The notes beneath the pieces were generated by a model. It was not told the origin of the DNA and made no database searches. It worked only from the letters and a program-made list of their open reading frames with translations. The translations under genes were made by a program, and so were the position numbers. A stretch of 64,000 bases of DNA from Cetorhinus maximus (lineage: Eukaryota): the NCBI RefSeq assembly GCF_964194155.1, contig NC_135887.1:40238001-40302000 (forward strand), given 5' to 3'. This document shows, piece by piece, positions 8,630 to 50,800 of the stretch; position 1 is the first letter of the stretch; every line of letters begins with the position of its first letter.

Positions 8630-9562
8630 AGCCCGCCGCTCCCACCCTCCAGGATCATGCCACCACCAAACACATCTTTGCCTCCCCTATCCCTTTCAAT
8701 TTTTCAAAGGAACTTTTCCCTCCACTGAACTCTGGTCGTGTCTATCTTTACCTCCAACATGTCCCTTTCACAAGGCACCTTCCATGCAAGCACAGGAGTT
8801 GAAACGTCTACCTTTTTACCACCTCCTTTGCCACTGTCCAGGGCCCAAATGCTTCTTCCAGGTGAAGTAGCAATTTACATGTACGTCTTTCAATCTAGTA
8901 TACTATAATTGCTACTCACAATGCACATCTCCAAATTGGGCAGTCTAAACTCAAATAGGTTTATTGCTTTGCTGAACACTTCTATTTAGTCTGCAAGCAT
9001 GACGCTGAACTCCAGGCACTTGTCATTTTAATTCTCTGCTCACTCCCATTCTATGTTCTCTGTCCTTGGCCCCATGAACTGTTCTAATGAAGCACAACAG
9101 AAGCTTGAAGAACAGCATCTTATCTCTTGATTATGCAGCCTTCAAGACTCAACACTGAGTTCAACAATTTCAGATCATAACTAATGCTACCATTTTTTCA
9201 CACAGTCCCTTTTGGTAATGAGATTGCCGTTGGCATTTACAGCTCCTCTAGTCCCTTTTCTTGCTCCACTCTAACCCTTTTTGCCTTGTACCATTATCCC
9301 TATTGTCATTTAATCATTCCTGCCTTCCATCCTATATCAGACATTCCCTTTTGCTCCTTCTGCTTCCCCCCCCAGCTTTCTTTGCCTCTGTACTTGATTA
9401 AAACTTGTTACGTCTCTAACTTTTTCCAGTTCTGATAAAAGGTCATTGACCTGAAAATTTAATTCTGTTTTCTCTCCACAGATGCTGCCTGGCCAGCTCA
9501 GTATTTCCAGTATTTTCTTTTTATATTTCAGGTTTCCAGCATCTGCAGTATTTTGTTTTCAG
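8630..9562 (+). mobile_element. Penelope-like element 3' remnant (GIY-YIG region and terminal repeat)
   Basis: Decayed coding for SFQVK..FTCTSFNLVY...FAEH...HFNS...KLEEQHL...GLNTEFNNFR, then the CTGA..GAAA / CACAGATGCTG...CCAGCATCTGCAG terminal repeat. Confidence 0.75.
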
Positions 9563-10017: not shown

Positions 10018-10474
10018 TTATTCTTTCTTTATACACACAGCCTCTAATGCGCCCTGTGCATCATCAATCTGCTGCTGCAATCTCTCTCGCATCGCTTCAT
10101 TTGTTGCTTTCTTTAGCCTGCCTTCCATCTCTTCAATAACCGCACGGTATCCCACCACGTTGTGGAAGACCCGGATTGCACGGTCACCACACGAAACTAA
10201 AAACCTACTGTTGATGTCAAATGCCAAGTCAGCAATCTCCTCCCCGTGCACATTTAAAAACTCTTCCTCCTGCTTGCCTGTCTTGGCGCTATGCACTGTG
10301 ATGTTGAAGCCACTGGAGATAGCTACCACCCTAGCATCAGGAGAAAGAGCGATTCGGCAGGGATCGGAGACATTGCATTTCATAGTGTACAGCAAGTAGG
10401 GGTCCTGCTGCTGTTTGTACTCAACATCAGTGTCCCACAGCTTCCAGGTGCCATCTTTAGAAACTGTTGCCATT
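10018..10474 (-). CDS. tbl2: tbl2 exon 7 (last coding exon)
   Basis: MATVSKDGTWKLWDTDVEY...LEAVCIKKE-stop; CAG acceptor at 10475-10477. Confidence 0.95.
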
Positions 10475-19400: not shown

Positions 19401-22400
19401 TTGGAGTCATATCTAGCACAAAGGAAGATGGTTGTAGTTATTGGAGGTCAATCATTTCAGTTCCAGGACATCTCTGCGATAATTCCTCAGTGTCCTAGGC
19501 CCAACCATCTTCAGCTGCTTCATCAATGGCCTGCCTTCCATCATGAGGTCAGAAGCGGGGATGTTTGCTGATGATTGCACAATGTTCAGCACCATTTGCA
19601 ACTCCTCAGATGCTGAAGCAGCCCATGTCCAAATACAGCAAGACCTGAACAATATCCAGGCTTGGGTTGACAAGTGGCAAGTAACATTCAAGCCACAGAA
19701 GTGCCAGGCAATGACCATCTCCAAAAAGGGTGAATCTAACCATCACCCCTGGATGTTCAGTGGCATTACCAACACTGAATCCCCCACTATCAACATCCTG
19801 GGGCTTACCATTGACCAGAAACTGAATTGGACCAGCCATATAATTACTGTGGCTACAAGAGCAGGTCAGAGGCTAGGAATCCCGTGGCGAGTAGCTCATC
19901 TCCTGACTCCCAAAGCCTGTCCACCATCTATAAGATACAAATCAGGAGAGTGATGGAATAATCTCCACTTGCCTGGATGAGCGCAGCTCAAACAACATTC
20001 AAGAAGCTTGATACCATCCAGGACAAAGCAGCCCACTTGATTGGCACCACATTTACTCCCTCCACCACCGACAAACAATGACAACAGTGTGTACCATCTA
20101 CAAGATGCACTGCAGAAACTCACCAAAGCTCCTTAAGCAGCACCTTCCAAACCCACGACCACTACCATCTAGAAGGGCAAGGGCAGCAGATACTTGGGAA
20201 TACCACCACCTGGAAGTTCCCCTCTAAGCCACTCACCATCCTGGCTTGGAACTATATTGCCTTTGCTTCACTGCTGCTGGATCAAAATCCTGGAACTGCC
20301 TCCCTAACAACACTGTGGGTGTACCTACACCACAGGGACTGGAGGGGTTCAAGAAGACAGCTCACCATCACCTTCTCAAGGGCAATTAGGGATGAGCAAT
20401 AAATGCTGGCCTAGTCAGCAACGCCCACATCCAATGAATGAATTAAATAAAAACTTGGGCAAATGCAGGTTAATTAAGGAAAGCCTGTATGAATTTGTTA
20501 AGTGCAAATTGTGTTTAACTAACTTGCCTGACTTTTTTTTAAAAAGGCAAAATACTGCGGTTGCTGGAAATCTGAAACAAAAACAAAAAATGCTGGAAAA
20601 ACTCAGCAGGTCTGACAGCATCTGTGGAGAGAAAGACAGAGTTAACATTTCAAGTCCGTATGACTCTGGACTTGAAACATTAACTCTGTCTTTCTCTCCA
20701 CAGATGCTGTCAGACCTACTGAGTTTTTCTAGCATTTTTTGTTTTTGCTTGACTTTTTGATGAGTTAACAGAGGGTTGATAAGGATAATGCTGTTGTTGT
20801 GATGTACATGGACTTCTAAAAGGCATTTGATAAAATGCCGCACAACAGATGTGAGCAACATTAGAGCTCATGGAATATAAGGGACAGCAGCAACATAGAT
20901 ACAAAATTGACTGAGTAACAGGAAACAGAGACTTGTGGTGAACTGTTGTTTTTTTGGGCTGGAGGAAGGTTTATAGTGGATCTCCTCAGAGGTCAGTTTC
21001 AGGACCCTGCTCTTCCTGATACACATTAACTACCTAGACCTTGGTGTACAAGACACAATTTTAAAATCTGAGGATGATACAAAACTTGGAAGTATTGTGA
21101 ACTGTGAGGAGGATAGTGTAGAACTTCAAAAGGACAAAGTCAGGGTGGTGGAATGGGCAGACAGGTGGCAGATTAAATTTAGTGCAGAGAAGTGTGAAGT
21201 GATTCATTTTGGTAGGAAGAACGCAGAAAGACAACATAAAATAAAGGATACAATTCTGAAGCGGGTGCAGGAGTAGAGGCAACTGGGTGCATACGTGCAT
21301 AAATCATTGAAGGTGGCAGGACAAGTTGAGAGTGATTAATAAAGTATACGGCATCCTGGGCTTTATCAATAGGAGCATAGAGCACAAATGCAAATAAGTT
21401 ATGTTAAACATATATGAAACACTGGTCCAGCATCAACTAGAGTATTATGTCCCAATCTGGACCACAAACTTTGGGGAAGATATGAAAGCATTAGAGAGGG
21501 TGCAGAAAAGATTCACAAGAATGGTTCCAGGGATGAGGAGGCATTCAGTTATGAAGTTAGATTGGAGAAGTTGGAACTGTTCACCTTGGAGAAAAGAAGG
21601 TTGAGAGAAGATTTGAAAGAGGTATTCAAAACCACGAGTGGTCTGGACAGAGTAGACAAGGAGAAACTGTTCACATTGGTGGAAGTGCCAAAAACCAAAG
21701 GGCACAAATTTAGGTAATTGGCAAAAGAAGAAATGGCAACATGAGGAAAAATGTATTAAACAGTGAGAGGTTAGGATCTGGAATGCACTGCCTGAGATTG
21801 TGGTGCAAGCAGGTTCAATCAAGACATTCAAGAGGAACTTGGATTAATCTCTGAAAAGGAAGAATGTAGAGTCACAGGGAGAAGGTATGAGAGTGGCTCT
21901 CGGAAAGCTGTTCCTTCAGAGAGCCAGCACAGACATGACAGGCCAAATGGCCTTCTTCTGTGCCATAACCATTCTATGATTCTATGTTTAAATAGATCAC
22001 ATTTTACCTGGAGTCAGGGCTGAAGCACACATGCGTGGCGTGATCAAGCTCAACATTAGTTCGCACACAACGATGGTCATGCTCAAGGAAGTCTTTTGTA
22101 CTCCAAATTCGCACAGTACGGTCATCAGCACAGGAAGCCAGGTATTTCCCATTACTACTGAAATCCAGACAGCTGATATTCCCACTGTGATTCTTTAAAA
22201 CAAAATAACAATTCAATCAAAACCCTTTTTCAGTCACTGATAATACATCACTCATCTTTACTAAGGTTTTTGTCACATTTCAGGATTTTCTGATAGTACT
22301 TTTTGCACAGAAACGATTTGGAAAAAGTGTTATTCTTAACATGCTTTAAATGCATAGTGTAATTTTAACAAAAGGATCTGAGATGATAAGTAATTAAGTT

Positions 22401-25400
22401 GCCAATAAAGCAGCTTTGGTGACAATTTCTCAGATTGTAAATAATAAGTAATTTGCTAAATTTTCTCAGTAATCAAAAAACAACTCATGCCTATTGTGTT
22501 GGGGAGTCACTGATGCTGGACATTTAGGAGATCGAGTGGATCTTTTCTCTAGTTGTGAGCAGCAGGCGTTAAAACAGAAATAGACACAAACAGTAGGTTT
22601 GAAAACTGGAAAAGCCATGAAGGCAGTCAGGCTGTTTAGAGAGTTTTTGCTGAGTTAGAAACGCTGAGGATAGTTCAAAGCCATCTTGATTTGAGTCAAG
22701 TAGGATGGCCCATTAAAATAAAAGCAAAAAACTGCAGATGCTGGAAATCCAAAACAAAAATAAAAATACCTGGAAAAACTCAGCAGGTCTGACAGCGTCT
22801 GCGGAGAGGAACACAATTAACGTTTCGAGTCCGTATGACTCTTCAACAGAACCAAGGAAAAATAGAAGAGTTCGCCGAGCGGCTTCTCGCTCTGGCTGGA
22901 GCTGTCAGCCAGCTGCCTGGCTCCACCTATCACTGGCCCTCTATCCAGCTCTACTTGTCCCACCCCCCCCTTAAACCAGCTTATATTTCACCTCTCTTCT
23001 ATTTTTCCTTGGTTCTGTTGAAGAGTCATACGGACTCGAAACGTTAACTGTGTTCCTCTCCGCAGATGCTGTCAGATCTGCTGAGTTTTTCCAGGTATTT
23101 TTATTTTTGTTTAGGATGGCCCACTATGTGGGTAGTATAACATGTTTTTGTTCCTGTGCAAATGTAAGCTATACAGATTGAATTAAGTGCTGTTCTGCAT
23201 GTTTATCTTACTGTGAAATAAAGCAGCTCATTTTTGTGTGGCACCAAGTGTTCATTTGCTTCACCTTCGGATAATTTGAAGTAGTACACATGCGAATCAC
23301 ACGAATACCATGTCCAGATCACAAGGGGCTATTATTGTCACACCAGGGGTTACACTATCATGCAAACAGATAAGAGAGACAGAGAGAGAGTAGTGTGAGT
23401 CAACTCCCATAAAAGTTAAGATGTCCAGACTGCTTATGGTAGAAACTTAACGCCAGAAAGATATTTACAGCAGGCCTAAATGTACAACAATTTTGCTGGT
23501 TAAAAGTACATGGCCGGTACCACTGTGAAGCTTTTTGTAATGGCTATCACCAACAGGTCTGGCACAGAGTTCCTCCAGTATCATTACCAACAAGAAGTGG
23601 ATCATAGGAATTCATCATTGAAAAATGCAGACCTATAGATGATACCTCCAGTATCACCAGTAGGTGTTGGTTCTGAGTTCCACATTTAATATCAGAGACA
23701 GACTGACCCACATATGCAGGGATCAGTGACAATACAGGGGGGAACTCAAAGGCCAGCATCTATTAGTGAAGGAAGAATTACACAAGCTAGTGCTCACTGC
23801 TGACTGAACAGGGAGATGCTCACAAAGCCCAGTGGCTAGATGGAGAAGGTCTCAAACAGCTAGCATTTATCACTGACCAGGTGGGAAGAATATACAAATC
23901 CAGCACTTATTCATGATCAGGCAGGGCAAAATTATATGTGGCCAGTGCCTGACAGTGTATGAGGATAACCTCATAGGATTGGCATCCACCAGAGATTTGA
24001 ATGGGAGGAACTCACAGAAGTCATCAATGTCAGACAGGAAGGAGCCTCACCCAAAAACTGGTCTAAGATGATGGAGGGGAATCCTATTTTGTTCTTTTGC
24101 CATAGTTACATCAAAATTGTGCCAGAGGGTCAGAGAAAGCTTTCCAGTGATGGGCTTTTCAGCAAGGAGCTCTGAAGAATGGATGCTGACATGGATTATT
24201 AATTTTTCAAACCAAGATGTAGAGCAGCTGCACGAACAAAGCATCCTGCTTAGCACTGGCTGTTACATAAAATAAAAACAGAAAATGCTGGAAATACTCA
24301 GCAGGTCAGACAGCATCTGTGGAGATAGAATAGAGTTAACGTTAACCAGCAAAAAAAAACATGAAACAAAATGAGGCAGAGGTTAGGATCCAAAACTGTT
24401 GAGCTTAATTTTGAGTCCAGAATGCTATAGAGTGCTGAGTCAAAAGATGATGTGCTGTTCCTCTAGCTTGCATTGAGCTTCATTGGAACACTAGCAGGCC
24501 TTGGACAGAAAGATCAGAATGGGAGCAAAGTAGAGAATTAAAATGAAGAACAACAGGAAGCTCAGGGTCATGCTTATGGACTTAACAGAGGTGTTGCTTT
24601 TATTTCATGTTTTTTTTTTCGCTGGTTCGGTTATGTCTCCTTTCTTTATCCCATCACATTGTATATGGATGACTGCCATGTAGCCATTCACATCTCATCT
24701 GGATACATCATGTTTCTTCACTATAACCATTACCACTTCTTTGGTAAAAGCAAAATACTGGGAATGTTGGAAATCTGAAATTAAAACAGAAAATGCTAGA
24801 AAAACATTAACTCAGCATCTTGGAGAGAAACAGAGTTAATGTTTCAGATCGTGATGACCCTTCATTGGAACTGAGGAAAGATAGAAATGGAACAGGTTTT
24901 CAGCAAATGGAAGGGAGGAGTGTGTGGAAGAACAAAAGAGAAGGTTTGTGGTAGGGTGGAGAGCAGGAGAGATAGGACAAAATGTTTCTTGGTACAAAAG
25001 CCAAAGGAAGTGATATAAAAACAGAAAATGCTGGAAAAACTCAGTAGGCCTGGCAGCATCTGTGGAGAGAGAAACAGAGTTAACGTTAACAGAGGTCTGA
25101 AGAAGAGTTTTATGGGCTCGAAATGTTAAATCTGTTTCTCTCTCCACAGATGCTGTCAGACCTGCTGAGTTTTTCCAGCATTTTCTGTTTTTATTTCAGA
25201 TTTCCAACATCCCCAGTATTTTGCATTTGTATGCGATCTTACATGGGGATCAGAGTTCTAAAAACATTCTCAGCCACACAAAGGTGAAGAAGTCCAGAAT
25301 GAATATTTGTTTTTCTTTATTATTACACCTCTGTGATAGGCCTTGGAATGTTTTTCTACATTAAAGACACCATATAAATTCGAGTTGTTGTTGAACTACA

Positions 25401-28400
25401 GAAATTACTGCTTTTCCCCATCTCAGGTACTGCTCTCGTGGCTCTGAAGCACATATTGCTGTGACAGATTTGCTCTACAATTTTAAAGTTCCTTACCTTT
25501 AGTGAAGTGGCCAGCAGTGGGTGGGCAAACACATGTTGCTGTGATTTTTCTTTACGTGGACGCTGCAACTTTTGCTTCCTTGATGCTGTGCTTCTGTCAC
25601 TTACACCATTACTGTCTTTACTGTCCTCTGAACAAAACAACAAATGGCTTCAGTTCACAAACATTTTTAGAATCATTTAATCAAATATCTATCTATACCC
25701 GAAGTGTTCAACCATATGTGCCTTGTATCTGCTGATGGGCAGCAGCTCGGGAGAGGGGCACAGGTAGCAGCTAGAGAAGGGAGCATGAACAAAGACATTA
25801 CACCTGCAACTGACTTTGACCAACACATGTATATGAACAGATTAAATATGATGTGGGATTTCTACAGGCAAAAAGATGAACAAAACCTTGCCTCATATCA
25901 CATTTTCTATAATGATAACATCACCACATATATTACTTTGACACATGATAAAGCTGTCACTCATTTGGATTTCTAGTACTCTGTTATCGATGTTTAGCAT
26001 CCTAAGTGCTCAATGGATTAAACACTGACTGTTGGTAGTGAGTCATACAGAGGAAGAGGGTCTCAGAATCAACCCCTAGGGCTTTAGCATTTCCCAAGAG
26101 CCTGGGTTTGGAGTTTAAACGTTTGCCTTGAACAGTGACACTGTTATCTAAAAAAGGCATCCTGTCCTCTGGGCATGTGAGCTGTACAGAATTTCCAAGA
26201 TGCATCAATAACATTCAAGCTGGCCAACTGATATTATGCTTTTCTTCCAAATGTAATAATATCAATTTGATTGTTTTTTATAGAAAATTTGAAGCTAAAG
26301 GACTACTTTTAAAAAGAGGTGAAATTAATATATATTTTTTAAAAAACACAACCTCATCTAATGCAGTCATATTTATGGCCTCTTCCACTCACTGCTAAGA
26401 CACATCAGCAAGTTGCCAATGAGCCAAACTCTATACGGCACTTCAGATCTGCCAAGCTTCAGATTCCCACTCCATAGTGATTTCAGGCCAAAGCACCCCT
26501 CATTTCTTAAAACACTAACATGCCCAATGCAGTGCCACAAAACTCCAGGACCAAAGAGCAAAGGCTACAACCAATGCAGTTAAAGTACACTCCACCTACC
26601 TAGTACTGCTAGACACCCTGATAGTTAACTGCAATTAGCAAATTGCATAAAATCCTGTTGTGTAATGCTGCAGGTTAATGCCGATTGTTAATTGCTCCAA
26701 GTGTTGCTGCAGCCTCTTAAAAAAATGTTGCCTGCAACCACTTCACGACTTACCTATAAATTCCTATTATAAATCTTTACTTAAGCATTTCAATGTTGAC
26801 ATAAAAAGCATCAATCAAAATTGTAACACAGGAAGTAACATTAGTTAACATAATGTGGAAGTATATGTATGTCCACACCATGCTTTTGCTTCTACTACCT
26901 TAGTTGGTAGAAATAGTGCTGTGGAGATGGAGCGTTTCTTTTGGGGAAGAAGCAGTGCTGGGGTGTGCTGCAGGGAAAGGCACACTATGTGTCACCCTTC
27001 ACTCAATGCTAATGGTCTATCCTCTCAGTCAGAAGGTCATGGGTTCAAATCTCAATCCAGGACTTGAGCACATATCTAGGCTAACAATTCTATGCTGTAC
27101 TGAGGGAGTGCTGCATTACATGCCATCTCGCAGATGAAATCCCATCTCTGTTTTCAGGTGAGTGTAAAAGGTCCCATAGCACTATTCGGAACGTATCATG
27201 AGAGTTTTCCACATGTTTATTTCTCAACCAACAAAAATAAAAAGAGATTAACTTTTCTTCACAAAGTGATTAACACTTCCTAGCAGAGCAGTGGAGCTGA
27301 AAACACCAAAATTATGTAGCAACTAGCTATAAGAGGGGAGGGGGAGGCACAGAGAAAATTTTAAACGTATGAATTAGGAGGATTCTTCTAAATGTATTAA
27401 TTAAGTCACACCTCATCCATCAGTATTGTGAGGTCCCATTGCTGTTTGTAGGTATTTGCTTTTGTGTAAAATGGTTGCCACATTTGCCAACAAAAAATTG
27501 GCTGAAGTGCTTTGGGATGGATGTAATAAGCACAATATAAACACAAGTTCTTTCCTTTCATAAAAGCAAAATCCACCTTTTAGCCTATTTCGATCCCTTC
27601 CCCCCACCCCACCCCCACTAGGGCTATCTGTCACTTGCTCGTCCTGCTTTCTACCCTTAATGTCACCATTAGCACATTCCTTAGCTAATATCAACCACTG
27701 TCAACACCCCTTTGTCCTTTTGTCTGAGATCTTTGGCAATCCCTTCTTTGCCTCCACCTATCACTGGCCCTCTATCAAACTCTACCTGTCCCACCTCCCT
27801 CAACCAGCTTATATTTCACCTAATTTCTATTTTTCCTTAGTTCTGATGAAAAGTCATACGGACTCGAAACGTTAACTGTATTCCTTTCCGCAGATGCTGT
27901 CAGACCTGCTGAGTTTTTCCAGCTATTTTTGTTTTTGTTTCTTTCCTTTCATACCAGACCCATCATCCTGAGTCACCTCAGTAAAGTACTAGGATGAGGG
28001 GTGACAGGGGAGCAGATACTGCTAGAAACACTTAACAGGCCAAGTAGCACTCCTGATGTTTCCAAGTAAATCCCTGGGGGATCCTAGGCTCGTATCCAGA
28101 GATTAGTTTGCTTATGATCAAATCTATGGAACAGGCTCCCTAGGGAGATGGTGGAAGCAGATAGATCAGTGACCCATTCAGGTTTAAATTAAATCAATAT
28201 TTTCCCCATTCTGGGATGCAGTATATGAGCAATTTTAGACATGATACAGTAAGTGTAGGATGCTCAGCAAGAGAAGGTAGCTTTGAGCCAATAACTCCCA
28301 AAGCTCTCTATCACTAAAGTTTTCCATATGTCTGGGTCTGCTGTACACTAATTGTTATTGATGGTCAATATGTCCAGTATGGCTGTCTCCAGGTGGCCTT

Positions 28401-28680
28401 TGCTCTTTTCCCTCTGACATCTTATGAATGGAGCTGCCTCATAGCCCAGCCCACCCGGCCCGCCTGCCAATAGGAAGCGCTGACAGCTTCAAGGCGGCGG
28501 TGGCCGGTGCTCAGGACTCAGGCCGGCTCACACTCTCTTCTCCCCACACCCCGGCTCCTCACCCTCATTACTGTTGTCTTCCTGCGGTGCGGCCCTCCGC
28601 GATCCGGTCACCGCCGCTGAGATAAAGAAAATGAGCGCCCCGAGGAGCAGCGACACGGCGAGGACAGCAAACGGCTCCAT
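10018..28680 (-). CDS. tbl2: Transducin beta-like protein 2 (ER-anchored WD40 protein), complete 7-exon CDS: 28563-28680, 25497-25627, 22008-22192, 14074-14225, 13190-13316, 12768-12920, 10018-10474
   Basis: All introns are GT-AG. Exon lengths 118+131+185+152+127+153+457=1323 nt give an open 440-aa frame. N-terminal hydrophobic anchor MEPFAVLAVSLLLGALIFFISAAV. Motifs HPLLATSLKNHSGNISCLDFSSNGKYLASCADDRTVRIWSTKDFL and RMATVSKDGTWKLWDTDVEYKQQQDPYLL are recognisably TBL2. Confidence 0.97.
11040..12540 (+). mobile_element. Old CR1 LINE RT remnant
   Basis: Decayed RT blocks (NYRTISL, FQKAFDEVPH-like, RTRGN..KL) with many stops. Confidence 0.65.
12768..12920 (-). CDS. tbl2: tbl2 exon 6
   Basis: FVASCGFTPDVKVWEVCFTKSGTFREVMRAFDLKGHSAGIYSFAFSNDSR; CAG acceptor, GTGAG donor. 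Confidence 0.94.
13190..13316 (-). CDS. tbl2: tbl2 exon 5
   Basis: KFIMSASNDTTILIWDLKGEVLATINTNQMNNAYAIVSPCG; TAG acceptor, GTCAG donor. Confidence 0.94.
14074..14225 (-). CDS. tbl2: tbl2 exon 4
   Basis: AFITWLANEETIRVFKMIKKDDGSFAFTAAPEDFPKKHKAPIVNIGIAET; CAG acceptor, GTGCG donor. Confidence 0.93.
17321..20452 (+). mobile_element. Full-length single-ORF (APE-RT) non-LTR retrotransposon with a tRNA-derived 5' head
   Basis: TSD ACTTGGG at 17314-17320 and 20453-20459. A box and B box within the first ~100 nt. EN starts at ~17730, RT includes PDNIPAIVLK, NYCPISLLS and MFADD. Tail TGAATGAATTAAATAAAA. Confidence 0.9.
20540..20748. repeat. Penelope-derived palindromic (fold-back) insert within CR1
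   Basis: Arms of about 80-90 nt around GTCCGTATGACTCTGGAC are reverse complements; flanked by near-duplicated TTGCYTGACTTTTT. Confidence 0.8.
22008..22192 (-). CDS. tbl2: tbl2 exon 3
   Basis: NHSGNISCLDFSSNGKYLASCADDRTVRIWSTKDFLEHDHRCVRTNVELDHATHVCFSPDS; AAG acceptor, GTAAA donor. Confidence 0.95.
22495..23354. mobile_element. Possible solo LTR interrupted by a Penelope-derived insert
   Basis: TG...CA ends with CTAT on both sides; AATAAA near 23217; terminal inverted repeat imperfect. Confidence 0.45.
22713..23111. mobile_element. Short Penelope-derived element with inverted terminal repeats
   Basis: 12-bp TSD TAGGATGGCCCA (22701-22712 and 23112-23123); arms of about 120 nt are reverse complements. 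Confidence 0.85.
24268..25230. mobile_element. Cluster of Penelope fragments (minus-strand GIY-YIG tail and several terminal repeats in both orientations)
   Basis: Repeated GAAAATGCTGGAAA...CAGCATCTGTGGAGAG blocks at ~24275, 24745 and 25020, with an inverse copy at 25130-25230; 24400-24500 is the reverse complement of the block at ~9070-9170. Confidence 0.75.
25497..25627 (-). CDS. tbl2: tbl2 exon 2
   Basis: EDSKDSNG...QRPRKEKSQQHVFAHPLLATSLK; CAG acceptor, GTAAG donor. Confidence 0.93.
26990..27250 (+). mobile_element. tRNA-derived Deu-domain-type SINE, decayed
   Basis: B-box-like GGGTTCAAAT, then TACTGAGGGAGTGCTGCA...TCAGGTG..GTAAAAG.TCCCAT.GCACTATT, as recalled for DeuSINE/AmnSINE-type bodies. 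Confidence 0.6.
27563..27938 (+). mobile_element. Short Penelope-derived element with the best-preserved hammerhead motif
   Basis: 15-bp TSD TTCTTTCCTTTCATA (27548-27562 and 27939-27953); shares its body with 22920-23111. Confidence 0.85.
27839..27877 (+). ncRNA. Minimal type I hammerhead ribozyme motif (putative, would need to act as a dimer)
   Basis: AGTT-CTGATGA-A-AAGTC-ATACG-GACTC-GAAA-CG-TT-AACT: stem I AGTT/AACT, intact core boxes, stem II, palindromic ACGT stem III. Confidence 0.6.
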
Positions 28681-28870
28681 GGGCCCGGGCTCCAAGGCAA
28701 CGTCAGCACGCGTGGCAGGGCAGCATCGGCACGCACCTGACGTCAGTGCGTGCGTGACGTCGACGAGTAGATGGCGTGTCCGACGTCATCGCGCAGGCTG
28801 CGTGCCTTCAGGGCGGCAAATAGTTTGTGCAGAATCGTTGAAGTTAGGACTAAGTTCCACGTGCCAATTG
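28440..28870 (-). promoter_or_regulatory. CpG island / tbl2 promoter with clustered CRE/ATF-type ACGT elements
   Basis: Sharp CpG enrichment over exon 1. Perfect TGACGTCA at 28738-28745, near-matches at 28755-28762 and 28781-28788, and CCACGTG next to CCAAT at about 28857-28868. Confidence 0.75.
28563..28680 (-). CDS. tbl2: tbl2 coding exon 1 (signal anchor)
   Basis: ATG at 28680 within the CpG island; donor GTGAG at 28562; phase 1. Confidence 0.9.
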
Positions 28871-29402
28871 CATCAAGAGCCAGTAGAAATCAGTCAGCAA
28901 CTAACCTGGTCCTGCAAGTTTCCTTTAAACTCTGTCTTTGTTTTTTCAGCCTCCCTAATTTGGGGGCTGTGTTTATTTTGTCCCTCATTTTGTTAATTTA
29001 GTTTATTTGGTTGACTGAAAAGTGTTAACTGGGCACCAGCGGAGGGTCTTTACTGGTGCTGAATGCCTGTTCTGCTGAACAAGGCTGAGAGAGGGGTATT
29101 AGTTGCAGCATTGATCCCCAAGATGGCAGCAGTGGCATCAAATCAATGCTGCACGCTGATTGGTATCACAATCTGCCTGCTCTGTAAATTCTGGCCAAGG
29201 TCCCTCCGTGCACACTTATACCATCACCAAAAAAGTGCAGGCATCATGTGCAGCTTGCACCAGAAATGTGCTCACATGCTATGGATGCCAAGTTTGGAGG
29301 AAAGACAACATTTGTAACACAGAAAAGCTGGGCATAATAAAGCTGAATTTTGGGACCTAGTAAATTAATTAGAGGCACTGGTTGAAAGAGAAGTCAGTTA
29401 TC

Positions 29403-32290
29403 ATTGAAGGAGCGGTGATATACTTCCAAGTCAGGATGGTGAGTGACTTGGAGGGGAACTTCCAGGTGGTGGTGTTCCCATCTATCTGCTGCCCTTGTCC
29501 ATCTAGATGGTAGAGGTCATGGGTCTGGAAGGTGCTGTCTAAGGAGACTTGGTGAATTTCCGCAGTGTATCTTGTAGATGGTACACACTGCTGCTGCTGT
29601 GTGTTGATGGTAGAGGGTGTAAATGTTTGTGGATGTGGTGCCAATTAAGTGGGCTGCTTTGTCCTGGATAGTGTAAAGCTTCTTGAATGTTGTGGGAGCT
29701 GCACGTATCCAGGCAAGTGGGGAGTATTCCATCACCCTGACTTGTGCCTTGTAGAGGCTGGACAGGCTTTGGGGAATCAGGAGGTGAGTTACCCGTCGCA
29801 CAATTCCTAGTCTCTGACCTGTTCTTGTAGCCACAGTGTTTTATGGCTAGTCCAGTTCAGTTTCTGGTCAATGGCAACGCCCCAGGTTGTTGATAGTGGG
29901 GGGTTAAGTGATGGTAATGCCATTGAACATCAAGGGGCAATGGTTGGATTCTCTCTTCTTGGATACAGTCATTGCCTGACACTTATGTGATGTGAATGTT
30001 ACTTGCCACTTGTCAGCCCAAGCCTGGGTATTGTCCAGGTCTTGCTGTATTTGGACATGGACTGCTTCAGTATCTGAGGAGTTATGAATGGTGCTGAACA
30101 TTGTGCAATCATTAGCGAACATCCCCATTTCTCACCTTATGTTGGGAGGAAGGCCATCGATGAAGCAGCCGAAGATGGTTGGGCCGAGGACACTACCCTG
30201 AGGAACTCCTGCGGTGATGTCCTGGAGCTGAGATGACTGACCTCCAACAACCACAACCATCTTCCTTTGTGCTAGGTATAACTCCAACCAGTGGAGAGTT
30301 TTCCCCTGATTCCCACTGACTCCAGTTTTGCTAGGGCTCCTTGATGCCACACTCGGTCAAATGCTGCCTTGATATCAAGGGCAGTCACTCTCGCCTCACC
30401 TCAGGAGTTCAGCTCTTTTGTCCATGTTTGAACCAAGGTTGTAATGAGGTCAGGAGTTGAAAGGCCCTGCCGGAACCCAAACTGAGCGTCAGTGAGCAGG
30501 TTATTGCTAAGCAGGTGCCGCTTGATGGCACTGTTGATGACCCCTTCCATTACTTTACTGATAATGGAGAGTAGACTGATGGGGCAGTAATTGGCCAAGT
30601 TGGATATGCCCTGCTTTTTGTGTATAGGACATACCTGGGCAATTTTCCACATTGCTGGGTAGATGCCAGTGTTGTCGCTGTACCAGAACAGCTTGGCTAA
30701 GGGCGCAGCAAGTTCTGGAGCACAAGTCTTCAGTACGATTTCCGGAATATTGTCAAGGCCCATAGCCTTTGCAGTATCCAGTTACTTCAGCCGTTTCTTG
30801 ATATCATATGGAGTGAATTGAATGAAGAGTTGCATCTACGATGCTGGGGACCTTCAGAAGAGGCCGAGATGGATCATCCACTCGGCACTTCTGGCTGAAG
30901 ATTGTAGCAAATGCTTCAGCCTTATCTTTTGCACTGATGTGCTGGGCTCCTCCATCATTGAGGATGGGGATATTTGTGGAGCCTCCTCCAGTGAGTTATT
31001 TAATTGTCCACCCCCATTCCCGACTGGATGTGGCAGGACTGCAGAGCTTAGATCTGATCTGTTGGTTGTGCCTGTCTATCACTTGCTGTTTATGCTGTTT
31101 GGCACGCAAGTAGTCCTGTGTTATAGCTTCACTAGATTGACATATTTTAAGGCATTCCTGGTGCCGCTCCTGACCGTGCCCTCCTGCACTCTTCTTTGAA
31201 CCAGGGTTGATCCCCTGGCCTGATGGTACTGGTAGAGTGGGGTAGCACAGTGGTAGTGCCACACAACACGATGGAGGGTATCCTCAATGTGTTGGCAGGA
31301 CTTCGTCTCCACAAGGCTGTGCGGGAGTCACTCTTACTGACACAGCGGCAGGCAGGTTGGTGAGGATGAGGTCAAGTATGTTTTTCCCTCACCACCTGCC
31401 ACAGACCCCAGTCTAGCAGCTAAGTCCTTTAGGACTCAGCCAGCTCGGTCAGTAGCAGTGCTACTACCGAGCCACTCTTGGTGATGGACATTGAAGTCCC
31501 CCACCCAAAATACATTCTGCACCCTTGCCACCCTCAGTGCTTCCTGGTGGTCGACATGGAGGAGCACTGATTCATCAGCTGAGGGAGAGCGGTACGGGGT
31601 AATCAGCAGGAGGTTTCCTTGCCCATGTCTGACCTGATGCCATGAGACTTCATAGGGCCCAGAGTCAATGTTGAGGATTCCCAGGGCAACTCCTTCTTGA
31701 CTGTATACCACTGTGCTGCCACCTCTGCTGGGTCTATCCAGCCAGTGGGACAGGATGATGTTGATGTCTGGGACATTATCTGTAAGGTATGACTCAGTGA
31801 GGATGACTATGTTAGGCTGTTGCTTGACTAGTCTGTGAGACAGCTCTCCCAATTTTGGCACCAACACCTAGATGTTCGTAAGGGAGACTTTGCAAGATCG
31901 ACAGGGCTGAGATTGCCATTATCATTTCCGGTGCCTAGGTCAGTGCCAGGTAGTCCTTTCATTCCTTTTTTGTGACTTCGTAGTGGTTTGTTACAACTGA
32001 GTGGCTTGCAAGGCCATTTCAGAGGGCAGTTAATAGTCAACCACATTGCTGTGGGTCTGGTGTAGACCAGGTAAGGATGACAGATTTCGTCCCCTAAAGG
32101 GCATTAGGGAACCAGATGGGTTTTTACAACAATCAATAATGGTTCGTTAGACTTTTAATTCCAGATTTTTATTGAATTTAAATTCCACCATCTGCCTTGA
32201 CAGGATTCGAACCTGGGACCCCAGAGCATTACCCTGGGTCTCTGAATTACTAGCTCAACAACAATACCACTACACCACCACCTTCCCCAG
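29403..32290 (-). mobile_element. Second copy of the tRNA-headed single-ORF LINE, lacking the last ~190 nt
   Basis: Colinear with 17321-20265; the head carries TGGTGTAGTGG and a perfect GGTTCGAATCC; EN and RT fragments appear in the ORF track. Confidence 0.9.
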
Positions 32291-35843: not shown

Positions 35844-38800
35844 GTAAGTGTTCACTACCTCATGCTGTTTGGGTTCTGTTCGGAGAGCTGGTGCAGACTC
35901 GAGGCTGAATGGCCTCCTTCTGCACTGTGACAATCCTGTGATTCTTCTTCAATATATTTGCTTCAACGCCCCCTTTTACATAGGCAATCATATTTTATTA
36001 AAATGTTTGTTCTCCATTTCTGTTTCGTACTGTCCTGATTATGTTGCCCATTAGTGGGTATAGTTCTGCGGCCGCATAATGGGTAGAGAAACTGCCTCAT
36101 ACTGAGTACTGGAGTACAGACTCACTGCCCCATATTGGATACAGCTGTATTGCCCTATTCTGGGTAAAGACTCGCTGCTCCATTCTGGGGTACAAACCCT
36201 CTGTCCCATATTGGATATGATTGTACAGCTCAAAACTGGGGTACAGACTCACTTCCCCATACAGGGTACAGATCCACTGCTCCCTTCTGGGAAATGCTTG
36301 CACCGCTCTATGCTAGGGTACAGATCCACTGCACCATTCTGGGGTATGGTTGCACTGCTCTATACTGGAGTACAGATCCACTGCCCCGTACTGAGTATAG
36401 TTGGATTGTTCCACACTGGGTACTGACACACTACCCCATACTGGGGTTTAGACTCGCTGCCCCTTGGTGGGGTATTGACTCACTGCCCTATATTGGGGTT
36501 TAGACGCATTGCCCTATACTGGGTACAGACTCACTGCCCTATACTGGGTACAGACTCACTGCCCCATCCTGGGGTATAGACTCACAGCTCCATACTGGGT
36601 ACAGATTCCCTGCCCCAGACTCGGGTACGGACTCACTGCCCCATACTGGGTTATAAACTCACTGCCACATACTGGGGTACAGTATCACTGCCCCATACTG
36701 GGTTATAAACTCACTGCCCCATACTGGGTTATATACTCACTGCCCCATACTGGATTATAAACTCACTGCCCCATACTGTGGTACAGACTCACTACCCCAT
36801 ATTCGGGCACAAATTCACTGCTCCATACTGGACCACAGGCTCACTGACCCATACTGGAGTATAAACTCAATGCCCCATACTGGAGTATAGATTCATTGCC
36901 CCATACTTGGGTACAAACTCACTGCCCCACACTGGATTATAGGCTCACTGCCTCATACTGGGTTATAGACCCACTGCGCCATAATGGGGTTTATACTCAC
37001 TGCCCCATACTGGGGTACAGTCTCACTGTCCCATATTGGGGTTTAGACTCACTGTCCCATACTGGGGTGCAGTCTCACTGTCCCATACTGGGGTGCAGTC
37101 TCACTGTCCCAAACCGGGGTATAGACTCTGTCCCATACTGGGGTATAGACTCACTGCCCCATACAGGGGTACAGTCTCACTGCCCCATACAGGGGTACAG
37201 TCTCACTGCCCCATACAGGGGTACAGACTCACTGCCCCACACTGGGGGTACAGTCTCACTGCCCCATACTTGGGTACAGTCTCACTGCCTCATATTGGGG
37301 TACAGTCTCACTGCCCCATACTGGGGTATAGACTCACTGTCCCATACTGGGGTACAATGTTACTGCCCCATGCTGGGTTATAGAGTCACTGCTCCATATT
37401 GGGATTTCATTCATTGCCCCATATTCGGGCATAGACTCAGTGCCTCATTACACTTCTGACTTGTAACAAAAACAGAAAATGCTGGAAAAACTCAGGAGGT
37501 CTGACAGCATCTGTAGAGCAAGAAACATTATTGACGTTCCAAATGACATACCTTGGCAATTTTCTACATTCCACTGGGCAACAGCTCAACCAGGGGCACA
37601 GCTAGTTCTGGAGCACAAGTCTTCAGTACTACAACTGGATGTTGTCAGGGCCCATAGCTTTTGCTGTATTTGGCCATTTCTTGATGTTACAACTGAAGTC
37701 GTTATGAATGCTGTTTGGTTAAGTTGCAAAAGCGCTTAGCGCAGCAGGGGAGGTTGAGTTCACATTTTAATTGAAAGTTTAAAGGTGCTATTAAAGGATT
37801 AGCTGTCTTTGATATGGTAACTGAATAAAGCTTTGTTTATAGTACAGATTGAACACTTGAGGGATTTTAAAAGCCCTCAAGTGGGATTTATGAATGGGAG
37901 TGTTTTTTCAGTAACAAGTGTGAAGGAGTGAGTTGCATAAGATTGTTCAACATTTATATATATTTATCTCTACTTGGCTCCTGAGATCTGCCCATGCTGA
38001 ACACTGGGTGAGTTTCTGTAGAGATGGTATGGAGGGGGAATAAGTTGGCATTGAAGTGGCATGGAGGTATGCGGAGGCATGGGAGTGTGTGTGGGGGTTG
38101 AGGGGTTGTTAGGGGTGAGGACTAGAGGGCCTAATGGCCTTTCAAACAACTGGGCTGAAGTCCCAAAGAACCGAGACAGGCCTTCTAACCAGCCCACCTT
38201 GGCACTCATCCGTTTCATGGCTGCCTACAAACTGCTTCCAGGGTCAGCGGGCTCGACCCTATCTCATTGCCGTCTCCCCATAGTGAAAATTTAAACTGAG
38301 CCACATTTGCCAAGTTGGAAAATTTCCTGATTCAAACTACCCACCTCAGCAGCGAAAATCTGGCCCTCATTGTCTAGCCTGTTCCATGAAGAATAGCTAC
38401 TTGGGTGAGCTACCATAGGCCAGCAACGCCTTGAAGTCTACCTAGGTAACTGTCAGCACTTCCAAAAAGAGAAGAGAAAATGGAGGAGGTGATTTGGGAA
38501 AGTTTCTGCCAACACTTCAGGCTGCACTTACACTTTCAGTTTAGCAAAGTTACATGTAGATTTCAGTTTCACATTAACATTAAACTTGCAGTGTCAGCCC
38601 TGAAACAGGGCCCTACTTGACTCCTGAACAGAACAGATGGTACCTCCAACAATGCTGTACTCTCTTAGTTGTGCATGAAGCATTAGCCCGGATTAAAAAC
38701 TGGAGTGAGTCTAGTTATTTACCATTTACAGCAAAATATAGAGTAAAAGTTCTCCTTCAATAATTACAAGGGTACCAGATTTGACTAGAAAGTCTCTTAA

Positions 38801-47800: not shown

Positions 47801-50800
47801 GGTGACATTAGCAACATACATCACCAGCAAATATCGGTGCCTTATTTGCCAGAGCCAACCATTACATTTTCTTTCCTTACAGATCCCAGAGATAAACAGA
47901 TCCATGTCCTGTGGTTCTTTTAAATGACTGGACTTCCTAACATCCAGGGCTTTCATTCAGTACTTACTGAACTGTCATTGCCTGAACAAGCAGGACAATC
48001 CAAGCCTCCAGCACCATCTTAAACTGTTACATTCTATGCAGCATTTCCATTATTTCCAGCAGCAACAGGATTCAAATAAGGAGCTGAAAAACATGGCTGA
48101 GAAGCCAGAAAAGACATTGTTAAGGTTTCGTAGGATATAATAGGTAGCTTCTGAAGAGTCATTATTACCTGAAACGGTAATTCTGTTTCTCTCCACAGAT
48201 GCTGTCTGACTTGCTGTGCATTTCCAGCATTTTCTATTTTTTTTTCCACATTTCCGGTATCTGTAATATTTTGCTTTAGAATAACTGATGAGTTTAGACA
48301 TGAGGTGAGAGATTGGTGTGGGCCTCCACAATGTGTTGTTGTAATGGGACTGCTCATGCTCTGATCAGCAGGCATAATGACACAGAATCCAGGAGAAGGA
48401 GCAGGCCAGGCCTGACCCAGGATTATGTTGCCACCTCTCCTGATATGACAACAGGTCTACACCAGTCTGAACTTTACCCCATTTACCTCCATTGAAGAGA
48501 CTACATGAGCCAGAAAACAAGCAAGGAATGATTGTCCAACACTAATAAAATTGCTGCAGCTTAAAATAGGGTAACTGGTGCTCGTTGAAGTTGAGAGGCA
48601 CTTGGATCCTTTTGTTGACATTGAGTGGTCAGTCACTCACAGGCTCTTGCCATGGGGCCTGAACTAAGAAGAAGCGGCAGTTTAGGTAATTGAACAGAAT
48701 GTATGTCAACTGATTAGAAACACATTTGTCTTCTTGTGAGCATAACAGTATATGCTGGGTTTAGCCAACCTTTTATTTGTGGAGCAGGTCAGAAGAGCTT
48801 TGCTGGGACTTCTGGAAGGTCTTGGTAATGTTGGACTGTTAATTTATTTCAAATGACAGGGAAGATGGTGAGAGGATGTGAAAGGAGTGGAAATTGGAAG
48901 GATTCTTGGAGTGTCAATCCAAAAACAGTAAAAACCATCTGCCAATGACTACTACATGGAATGAATCTGATCTGTTATAGATATCTTTTGTTTTTTTTTA
49001 AGTCCATGTGTAGGACCAATCGTGCGACTGTTAGCGGTTATTTCTTGGCTGGGAGGAACATGCAATGGTACACAGTGAGTAATTTTATCAATTTAGTTTA
49101 ATTTATTTGTCAACATCTCTTTAAATTATAGAAAACAATGTTACAATAAACCTGAAATCTTAGGAAACTAAAATCAATTTTAACCCATAACTTGGCCATT
49201 GTTGGACAATAGAACTCAAGTGAATGGTGAGCCACAGATTGAATATGTGAAAATTTATATGATGGTGATTGATTAATAAGTTTGAATGCAAGTGAGAATT
49301 AAACTTTATGGCTATAAAACTGTAAACAACAGTAAGTAACTTTTAAGGATGTGTAATAACCCTCACTTAGGCCTCAGTAAGATGGAAGTTGAATGGATCA
49401 AATTTTTTGAGCTGAAAGTTCACTGTGCTAACTTATTTTGGCGCGCAGCTCTTTGGAAACCTTTTATAGCTAAAAAATACTTATTTGATATCCGAGACGC
49501 CATACCTGCAGCAGAAGGTAGTTTTTTTTTTCAAAACTCACCAGGTCTCTTTCTCAAATCCTCCTCCAGGTTGGAGCCTCACTCTTTGCGAGTAATATCG
49601 GAAGCGGACACTTTGTGGGTTTGGCAGGCACAGGGGCAGCAAGTGGCTTGGCTGTTGGAGGCTTTGAGTGGAACGTAAGTGTGGTGAAATAAGTATGTTA
49701 ACACTTTGTAGCATTTTATGAATCCTGATCAGCGTGTCCTTGGGATTCCAAACTTTTCCCAAGCTGGCCCTGCTTTGTATCATCACTGGCTGGGAGGAAC
49801 ACTTGACATTTGAAGCTTGACACACTAAGATGTGTATTCACCTAATGGATGACACTATATTGCATTTATAATCCTAATTAACCCCTAAGTTTTTTAAACA
49901 ACCTTATTCACTGGCTGAGCCACCTTTAAGAATTTGTGTCTATGGAGACCAAGGTCTCTCTGCTCATCTACACATTTCAAAATCATGCCATTTATAATAT
50001 ACTGTCTTTCCAAGTTAGTCCTCCCAAAGTGCAATCACTTCACACTTCTCCATAAACTCCATCTGCTATGCTTGTGTCTATTTCACCATTCAGTCTATGC
50101 CACCCTGAACCCTATAACTATCATCATTACTATTACTACTTCATCAAGCTTCATATTAAATATCATAGCAAACTTTATAATGCTGCTCCCTACATCAGAG
50201 TTTAGATCAGTTATAAAAATTAAAAAGAGTAAAGGGCCCAAAACTGACCCTTACAACATCACTGTTCCCAAGCTCCCAGGAATATGAATATTACTTCTTT
50301 CAGACTACCAGTAATCAAACACATTAATAGCCCCAAACCCCAGGATTCTGACATATTACTGCTTGCATTCCTCAGTGACTAGGTATGTTATAGCCCCCAG
50401 ATCTACAGCAATTAGGCACACTACAATCTTTGGATTCCTAAGGATCAGTTGTAGAACCTGTCCCTAGTCTCCCAGAGATCTCAATATTACTGGTGCTTTA
50501 CTGTCCCTGGACCCTCAGGGATCAAATTCATATTTCCCACATGCAAGCATATCAATTGGATGAGATACATTTGATGAAATTTGATTTAAGTTTGTCATTT
50601 TGTAGCTGATACCTATCTCACTTTCAGCTTTTATTCTCCCCCTCAATATCAGCACCCTTTCTCTATTTTATCAGTATTCCTGTGGTCAGTGATCCTCTGA
50701 ACTTGATCTTCTGTCTTCATAAGATTCAAAACTGTTCATACCGCCCTGCATCTTCACATGCTTGAAGTCAAGACTCATTGCTTTTCTCCTACCCTAATTC

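What the first reader, a model, noticed from the sequence alone, without database searches (positions are those of the whole stretch)
27563..27938. Family of short Penelope-derived elements carrying a minimal hammerhead ribozyme with covarying stem II
Seen: the motif stemI-CTGANGA-A-stemII-GAAA-CGTT-stemI' recurs at 27839-27877, 23010-23048, ~22816-22853 (minus), ~24833-24872 (minus), 25093-25131 and 9428-9464. Stem II changes while still pairing (GAGTC/GACTC, AGGTC/GACCT, GGGTC/GATCT, GAGTT/GGCTC). Stem I is AGTT/AACT and stem III is only the palindrome ACGT. Some copies have core substitutions (CTGTTGA, CTGATAA, CCAATGA). Established: Penelope-like element terminal repeats carry minimal type I hammerheads thought to cleave as dimers. 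Inference: these 200-400-nt TSD-flanked inserts are non-autonomous ribozyme-bearing retroelements mobilised by Penelope RT. Several sit inside tbl2 introns.
Basis: partly seen in the sequence, partly recalled or inferred. Interest (0 to 1): 0.7.

Follow-up and report, generated by a model that had tools for sequence, protein, structure and literature searches.

The report
Truncated Penelope tips with drifting hammerhead
This is a cut-off end of a very common jumping gene that carries a known kind of small RNA motif predicted to self-cut; less ordinary is that the youngest branches of the family swapped a normally fixed letter of the motif, and that many copies begin right at the motif, likely because the element's RNA starts there and is mostly copied uncut.

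Summary
The motif is real and at the stated places, but the inserts are not a separate non-autonomous family. 27563-27938 is the 5'-truncated terminal repeat (pLTR) of a 3.3-kb Penelope-like element with reverse transcriptase and GIY-YIG endonuclease: 94% identical to the ends of long copies, with a 15-bp target duplication and an inverted tail tip. About 485,000 such tips lie in the genome. Minimal type I hammerheads in Penelope pLTRs were described in 2014. Stem II pairing survives about three lineage-level changes; the focal copy has lost its first stem II pair. The 'core substitution' CTGTTGA is not decay: exact counts are A6 18,758, U6 32,890, C6 22,731, G6 964, and the C6 lineage is the youngest. 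Copy 5' ends pile up at the first base of helix I (19 of 60 random copies), 29-30 nt behind a TATA-like box, not at the cut site. That suggests a transcript that starts at the hammerhead and is mostly copied uncleaved. Cleavage is untested. This scan noted both points before, in this genome and in others.

The parts
27548..27562 (+). left copy of the 15-bp target site duplication
   Evidence: exact repeat
27563..27572 (-). inverted tip of the element's optional 3' tail (its last bases overlap the target by 3 nt)
   Evidence: reverse complement of the tail end seen in 16 of 29 relatives
27572..27938 (+). 5'-truncated pLTR / 3' UTR of the Penelope-like element, starting about 140 nt behind the stop codon of the RT-endonuclease frame and ending at the tail-less end point
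   Evidence: 93-96% to 39 other scored copies; 94-95% to the ends of long ORF-bearing copies
27810..27819 (+). TATA-like box, 29 nt before helix I; likely core promoter element (inferred)
   Evidence: at -29 or -30 in 117 of 131 long copies selected for holding the word
27839..27877 (+). minimal type I hammerhead motif: helix I AGTT/AACT, core CTGATGA, extra A, stem II with A.C mismatch at 27851/27865, GAAA, ACGT palindrome, predicted cut after 27873; 27839 is also the initiator-like A where copy 5' ends pile up
27939..27953 (+). right copy of the target site duplication
22713..23111 (.). composite insertion of the U6 lineage: inverted copy with tail (22716-22870, minus), 53-nt captured host fragment (22868-22920), direct copy (22918-23111); 12-bp target duplication
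25011..25231 (.). head-to-head pair of minimal tips; plus-strand copy starts at helix I, minus-strand copy starts near the cut-site palindrome
20538..20749 (.). head-to-head pair of minimal tips, both lacking the 5' core
24745..24905 (-). decayed tip resembling the oldest (AGGTC/GACCT) lineage, core CCAATGA
24268..24626 (-). old fragment: endonuclease C-terminal coding remnant (24626-24386) followed by a tip lacking the hammerhead core (24343-24268)
8647..9562 (+). old-lineage copy: broken endonuclease-coding remnant (8647-9177), 3' UTR, decayed hammerhead at 9428-9464, tail
37461..37543 (-). further tip without hammerhead core
48143..48278 (+). further old tip starting at the hammerhead

Best explanation
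The stretch is a 5'-truncated terminal repeat of an autonomous Penelope-like retrotransposon and holds a worn minimal hammerhead motif, likely made when the element's own reverse transcriptase copied part of an uncut element RNA into a nick in the first intron of a WD40 (tbl2-like) gene. Shown: a 3.3-kb parent with one RT plus CX4CX2C linker plus GIY-YIG frame; tandem pLTR-ORF junctions with the start codon about 170 nt behind the hammerhead; two preferred 3' end points about 35 nt apart; inverted 5' copies; target duplication. Inferred: in tandem copies RNA polymerase II starts at the A of YYAGTT, 29-30 nt behind a TATA-like box, so the hammerhead is the first 39 nt of the RNA. RT primes internally at one of the two tail sites, as shown in vitro for the lizard element PAc (PMC11167929). 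It either runs off this 5' end, leaving 100-140-nt tips and head-to-head palindromes, or carries on through or jumps to the 3' pLTR, leaving longer copies such as this one. The hammerhead is likely a slow cutter that needs a second copy or the element's protein. Its stem II, GAAA and ACGT stay constrained, while position 6 went from A to U to C in successively younger lineages without stopping their spread. The focal copy itself is likely dead: first stem II pair broken, antisense to the host gene, and shared with a relative about 3-5% diverged.
For: Collinearity with long copies and variable 5' ends. RT and GIY-YIG: (RVT_1 30.8 bits in L227, above the cut-off 29.6; GIY-YIG E 4e-4, below its cut-off); motifs. 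pLTR-ORF junctions. Two 3' end points: 16 of 29 with tail, 13 of 29 without. 5' ends: 19 of 60 random copies end at -5..+14 around the first base of helix I (0.027 per nt at risk) against 0.003 upstream and 0.007 downstream; in the youngest lineage, read by eye, 17 of 100 begin at -8..+15, 1 at +21, 1 at the cut site (+35), 81 run at least 12 nt further 5'. TATA-like spacing. Core counts. Age order: neighbour distance A6 0.166, U6 0.102, C6 0.072; tree of 79 endonuclease-coding ends with all C6 rows inside a 100/100 clade and the shortest end branches; long open frames in C6 copies. Stem II. PAc: hammerhead mutants do not impair insertion, cutting needs protein (PMC11167929). Shared insertion: a DNA contig of another organism runs from 27909 into the unique flank.
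Against: No raw RNA reads were available, so the start site is inferred from DNA ends only. The TATA word was a selection criterion for the long copies and was sought only in a 24-nt window. YAG before TTCTG also reads as a 3' splice site, and in Drosophila virilis an intron end maps to the 5' end of helix I (PMC4209133); that element has a TATA-less internal promoter (PMC2377424). Some apparent ends in old lineages are alignment failures. 4 of 60 random ends lie at +33..+38, so some cut templates are not excluded. The A6-U6 backbone of the tree is poorly resolved and its bootstrap had not settled. Stem II measures that count pairs or types are not above shuffles (342/500, 340/500), and helix I has a C.A mismatch in one large A6 lineage. 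The monomer folds no better than shuffles. Only 30 nt of the shared contig lie in the element, just under the tool's 31-letter bar.
Confidence: 0.8

Rival explanations
1. The short inserts are an independent non-autonomous family (SINE-like or retrozyme) with its own unit length, mobilised in trans, perhaps through circular RNA.
For: Short copies greatly outnumber long ones and about a third share one 5' end; partial tandems put two hammerheads about 300 nt apart in L009 and L015; vertebrate retrozymes are reported to derive from pLTRs (10.64898/2026.07.22.740005).
Against: 29 of 29 relatives of the focal copy extend further 5'; short copies carry the same lineage marks as ORF-bearing ones; the two arms of palindromic stubs often match each other more than other loci, as expected if built at insertion; no tandem array with the motif in the window.
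Confidence: 0.07
2. The pile-up of 5' ends marks a 3' splice site or an RT stop at bound protein, not a transcription start.
For: Pyrimidine tract and YAG precede helix I; intron end at helix I in D. virilis (PMC4209133); ends spread over about 15 nt.
Against: No shared upstream exon is joined to the short copies; their flanks are unique or inverted copies; the TATA-like box keeps its distance although the bases between differ among lineages; RT would meet the fold from the 3' side first.
Confidence: 0.25
3. In U6 and C6 lineages the motif is no longer a ribozyme: it is kept as a promoter, leader or protein-binding hairpin.
For: A6C gave a rate under 0.1 per min in a phage hammerhead (PMC3088659) and strongly lowered Mg-dependent cleavage (PMC7151607); U6 lets the core pair with the cut-site bases in the predicted fold; few ends at the cut site; cleavage is dispensable in vitro for PAc.
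Against: C3, U4, G5, G8, A9, GAAA, ACGT with its mutable CpG, and a U16-H17 cut triplet are kept in the common words of all lineages, and stem II changed compensatorily inside the C6 clade; A6C ribozymes retain activity, more with Mn.
Confidence: 0.35

Closest known systems
Minimal hammerheads (min-HHR) of metazoan Penelope-like elements; Cervera and de la Pena 2014, PMC4209133 (read: parts 1-2 of 4; one of two supplements searched)
   Same: Type I layout, 4-bp helix I, extra base between positions 9 and 10.1, G10.1-C11.1, palindromic 15.2-16.2, location in pLTRs, mostly single truncated copies, pairs on opposite strands.
   Different: Position 6 is U or C in 74% of exact matches here; the core variant named in the parts read is U3-A8. 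Stem II is 5 bp. The supplement searched has no shark or skate entry.
EN+ Penelope-like elements of the Neptune/Nematis type; Craig et al. 2021, PMC8557442 (passages), Arkhipova et al. 2013, PMC3846280 (passages)
   Same: One ORF with RT, CX2-5CxxC linker and C-terminal GIY-YIG; 5' truncation, partial tandems, inverted 5' copy, 30-40-nt tail on one end, target duplications; TATA and Inr-like words were noted in a rotifer pLTR.
   Different: About 485,000 tips and about 3% of the genome; pile-up of 5' ends at helix I not seen in the passages read. Clade not tested by a tree with named references.
PAc (Poseidon of Anolis carolinensis); Frangieh et al. 2024, PMC11167929 (read: parts 1-2 of 4)
   Same: Hammerhead at the pLTR-ORF junction, two end points bounding the tail, uncut RNA as the likely main template.
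   Different: In PAc the ORF starts inside the hammerhead; here the start codon is about 170 nt downstream, the linker has the Cys motif, and the core is variant.
Non-LTR retrozymes of animals; Li et al. 2026, 10.64898/2026.07.22.740005 (read: parts 1-3 of 5)
   Same: Short pLTR-derived units with type I hammerheads; reported in one cartilaginous fish.
   Different: Defined as tandem units each with a full hammerhead; these copies are dispersed, of variable length and collinear with the parent.
Natural A6C hammerhead of phage Bcep176; PMC3088659 and PMC7151607 (passages)
   Same: C at core position 6.
   Different: A single phage ribozyme there; here tens of thousands of copies in a dimer-type motif, with a U6 stage before it.

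Membership tests
EN+ Penelope-like element | single ORF with RT and C-terminal GIY-YIG endonuclease | tested here: met
   694-aa open frame from RT to the end of the endonuclease in L224; Pfam GIY-YIG below its cut-off
EN+ Penelope-like element | pLTR formed by partial tandem, 5' truncation, inverted 5' copy | tested here: met
EN+ Penelope-like element | optional 30-40-nt tail on one end | tested here: met
   16 of 29 with, 13 of 29 without; about 35 nt
Neptune clade | CX2-5CxxC linker before GIY-YIG (shared with Nematis) | tested here: met
   C-x4-C-x2-C; definition from PMC8557442
Neptune clade | RT phylogeny with named references | not tested
   no reference set fetched
min-HHR of PLEs | type I order, helix I of 4-5 bp, extra base after A9, palindromic helix III bases | tested here: met
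   helix I 87.7% paired, no lineage-level compensation
min-HHR of PLEs | stem II kept by covariation, G10.1-C11.1 | tested here: inconclusive
   93.5% paired, score above 500 of 500 shuffles, but only about three lineage events; oldest lineage has A-U at 10.1/11.1; focal copy has A.C
min-HHR of PLEs | canonical core CUGANGA ... GAAA | tested here: not met
   met in the focal copy and A6 lineages; not met in U6 and C6 lineages (55,621 of 75,343 exact matches)
min-HHR of PLEs | self-cleavage as dimer | not testable with these tools
   cofolding pairs the ACGUU region across two copies in 5 of 6 cases, a prediction only
Non-LTR retrozyme | two or more consecutive tandem units, each with a complete hammerhead | tested here: not met
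   for the window; elsewhere only partial tandems
Non-autonomous short element | fixed 5' end and unit length, independent of the ORF-bearing parent | tested here: not met
   0 of 29 relatives start where the focal copy starts

The most novel reading that the evidence does not exclude
A vertebrate Penelope lineage kept spreading while replacing the invariant A6 of its hammerhead twice, because the motif, placed at the very first base of the transcript, has become a deliberately slowed or protein-gated switch: uncut RNA serves as template, and RT run-off at the RNA 5' end makes a strong-stop-like cDNA of 100-140 nt that accounts for over a hundred thousand genomic stubs and for the inverted ends of Penelope insertions.
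Probability: 0.3. Interest if true: 0.7.

Novelty: new variant of a known kind. Interest (0 to 1): 0.38.

Why it matters
The focal insert is ordinary. The family is useful because the role of hammerheads in Penelope elements is still open: in vitro they cut slowly and are dispensable for insertion. This genome gives a dated natural series (A6, U6, C6) with near-intact coding copies, and a copy-end profile that points to where the RNA begins and to uncut templates. Both are directly testable. About half a million copies also make it a notable share of the genome.

Tried and rejected
Rfam scan: no hammerhead family hit; the miRNA-like hits are the head-to-head palindromes. Programmed frameshift between RT and endonuclease: long copies found with a frameshifted query all shared the shift, but among 8 copies not so chosen 4 were in frame, so it is a mutable C run and a search bias. 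Intron in the leader behind the hammerhead (a GT donor in younger lineages): no matching joint in four contig runs; contigs cannot exclude it. Expression: no RNA holder on record; contigs cannot show start, strand or level. Solved structures: no match. Monomer folding stability: not above shuffles. Core-to-cut-site pairing as the cause of U6: fits U6 but is weaker in C6, kept only as a lead. One search placed nothing (pattern error) and was repeated. Lunse et al. 2017 is not held, so whether it lists position-6 variants is unknown; I saw only its citation and a review's account. Literature searches for the variant core with Penelope gave 0 papers and 3 general papers; file 1 of the 2014 supplement and bioRxiv supplements could not be seen.

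Full report
Observation. At 27839-27877 the order is helix I (AGTT), core CTGATGA, one extra A, stem II, GAAA, ACGT, U17, helix I partner (AACT), with the predicted cut after 27873. In this copy the first stem II pair is A.C, not G-C. Of the six, 2 have the canonical core, 3 the ACGT palindrome, none everything. A profile finds 12 tips in the window. Rfam has no hit. The motif is not chance: 75,343 exact matches to four core patterns against 0-3 for reversed patterns.

What the insert is. 27563-27938 lies between two exact 15-bp repeats. Its first 10 nt are the reverse complement of the family's tail end; the rest is 93-96% identical to the 39 other copies scored of 3,866 candidates. Of these, 29 were fetched: all continue further 5' than the focal copy, to different lengths; 16 end with a 35-nt tail and 13 without. 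Eight picked as long are collinear for 1.2-2.9 kb, one of them through an inverted copy, and the focal copy is 94-95% identical to their ends, starting about 140 nt behind the stop codon. The parent has one frame with RT, a C-x4-C-x2-C linker and GIY-YIG. In tandem copies the tail leads into the start codon, about 170 nt behind the hammerhead. The 9428 copy belongs to an older lineage and also runs into endonuclease remnants. This is the insertion anatomy described for Penelope-like elements (PMC8557442; PMC3846280). The inserts are truncated copies of autonomous elements, not a separate short family.

Abundance. 96 hits in 79 random 10-kb stretches, 0 in reversed DNA, give about 485,000 tips (bootstrap 370,000-617,000); three full copies cover 3.2% of that DNA. 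Of 51 random copies with a whole motif, 4 have canonical core, full stem II and ACGT. The host is likely a shark; that is my recall of the repeat landscape and the wording of earlier notes, not a tool result.

Host gene. A WD40 gene on the minus strand, read as tbl2 from recalled motifs, has exons at 28563-28696, 25497-25627 and 22008-22192 joined in one contig of a probable RNA run. The focal copy is antisense in intron 1; four lie in intron 2; the 9428 copy is beyond the stop at 10021. The sense-strand intronic copies have a U6, a decayed or no core, so cutting of the host pre-mRNA is unlikely. A DNA contig of a second organism runs from 27909 into the unique flank at about 5% difference, which suggests an old, fixed insertion.

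Covariation. On 104 aligned copies (83 distinct) stem II is 93.5% paired; the score 0.387 exceeds all 500 shuffles and all slid controls, but counts of pairs and types do not. The changes are G-C to A-U at 10.1/11.1 (oldest lineage), A-U, G-U and G-C at 10.2/11.2, and U-A to C-G at 10.4/11.4 (youngest; 14 of 104 rows): about three events inherited by many copies. Helix I shows no lineage-level compensation and a C.A mismatch in one large lineage. The rows were chosen by patterns that fix the core and ACGT, so their invariance in this alignment is not evidence.

The core variants are lineages. Exact counts by position 6: A 18,758, T 32,890, C 22,731, G 964; G marks the decay background. Exact counts favour young copies: in random DNA the split is A 28, T 13, C 8, G 2 of 51. 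Neighbour distances fall from A6 0.166 to U6 0.102 to C6 0.072. A tree of 79 endonuclease-coding ends, rooted at the midpoint with the old lineage outside, has A6 rows at the base, U6 nested, and all C6 rows in a 100/100 clade with end branches down to 0-0.012; the A6-U6 backbone is unresolved. C6 copies hold the longest open frames and 97-98% identity. A6C is known to slow hammerheads and to favour Mn over Mg (PMC3088659; PMC7151607).

Where copies begin. With the first base of helix I as 0 and the cut at +35, 19 of 60 random copies begin at -5..+14, 11 in the 210 nt upstream, 18 at +15..+64 (4 at +33..+38), and 12 run beyond -215. In the youngest lineage, by eye, 17 of 100 begin at -8..+15, 1 at +21, 1 at +35. 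A TATA-like word sits at -29 or -30 in 117 of 131 long copies selected for it, and 0 is the A of YYAGTT in most. I infer a polymerase II start at helix I, and that uncut RNA is the main template. This agrees with PAc, where RT starts internally at two sites bounding the tail, hammerhead mutants still insert, and cutting needs protein (PMC11167929). Run-off at the RNA 5' end would give the 100-140-nt stubs and head-to-head palindromes at 20538 and 25011. A splice site at the same YAG is the main rival (PMC4209133). No raw reads were available to decide.

Comparison and verdict. It works like, and by structure is, an endonuclease-bearing Penelope-like element of the Neptune/Nematis type with the minimal hammerhead described in 2014; clade membership was not tested by phylogeny and cleavage not at all. 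It is not a retrozyme by the tandem-unit definition. The lineage-wide U6 and C6 cores and the start-site pile-up were not found in my searches of the held literature, but Lunse et al. 2017 could not be read. This scan has 45 notes on Penelope hammerheads in this genome and similar ones in others; I looked them up after reaching my reading, and they are not independent support. The focal insert is ordinary; the family offers a testable natural series.

Noticed in passing
window 22868-22920: A 53-nt GC-rich piece at the junction between the inverted and direct copies matches (91-92%) a CpG-rich, CCAAT-rich region of a multicopy family concentrated on contig C24, with short microhomologies at both sides: likely a host RNA fragment captured by template switching. 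No Rfam hit.
   Followed up: partly
L024, L017, L029 and others, between RT and endonuclease: A C run in the linker varies in length from 13 to 25 nt and shifts the frame in 4 of 8 unbiased copies: a mutation hot spot that detaches the endonuclease.
   Followed up: yes
L227 5210-5300, L061, L230: In younger lineages the leader behind the hammerhead has a GT donor-like site, then a branch-like word and pyrimidine tract before the start codon; no spliced joint was seen in contigs.
   Followed up: partly
L222 5850-7580: A young C6 copy ends about 100 nt before a 577-aa NACHT/FISNA (NLR-type) frame.
   Followed up: no
window 36107-37403: 26-nt minisatellite, 50 copies.
   Followed up: no
window 17684-20273 and 29402-31923: Two inverted copies (77-89%) of a LINE-like RT element about 9-14 kb apart, one inside the WD40 gene and one upstream of it.
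   Followed up: no
window 45979-46653 and 2832-3479: A DDE_Tnp_4 transposase fragment and an RNase H fragment of an LTR-type retroelement.
   Followed up: no
The tail-motif count was reported as exactly 54,232 on each strand; treated as approximate and not used.
   Followed up: no
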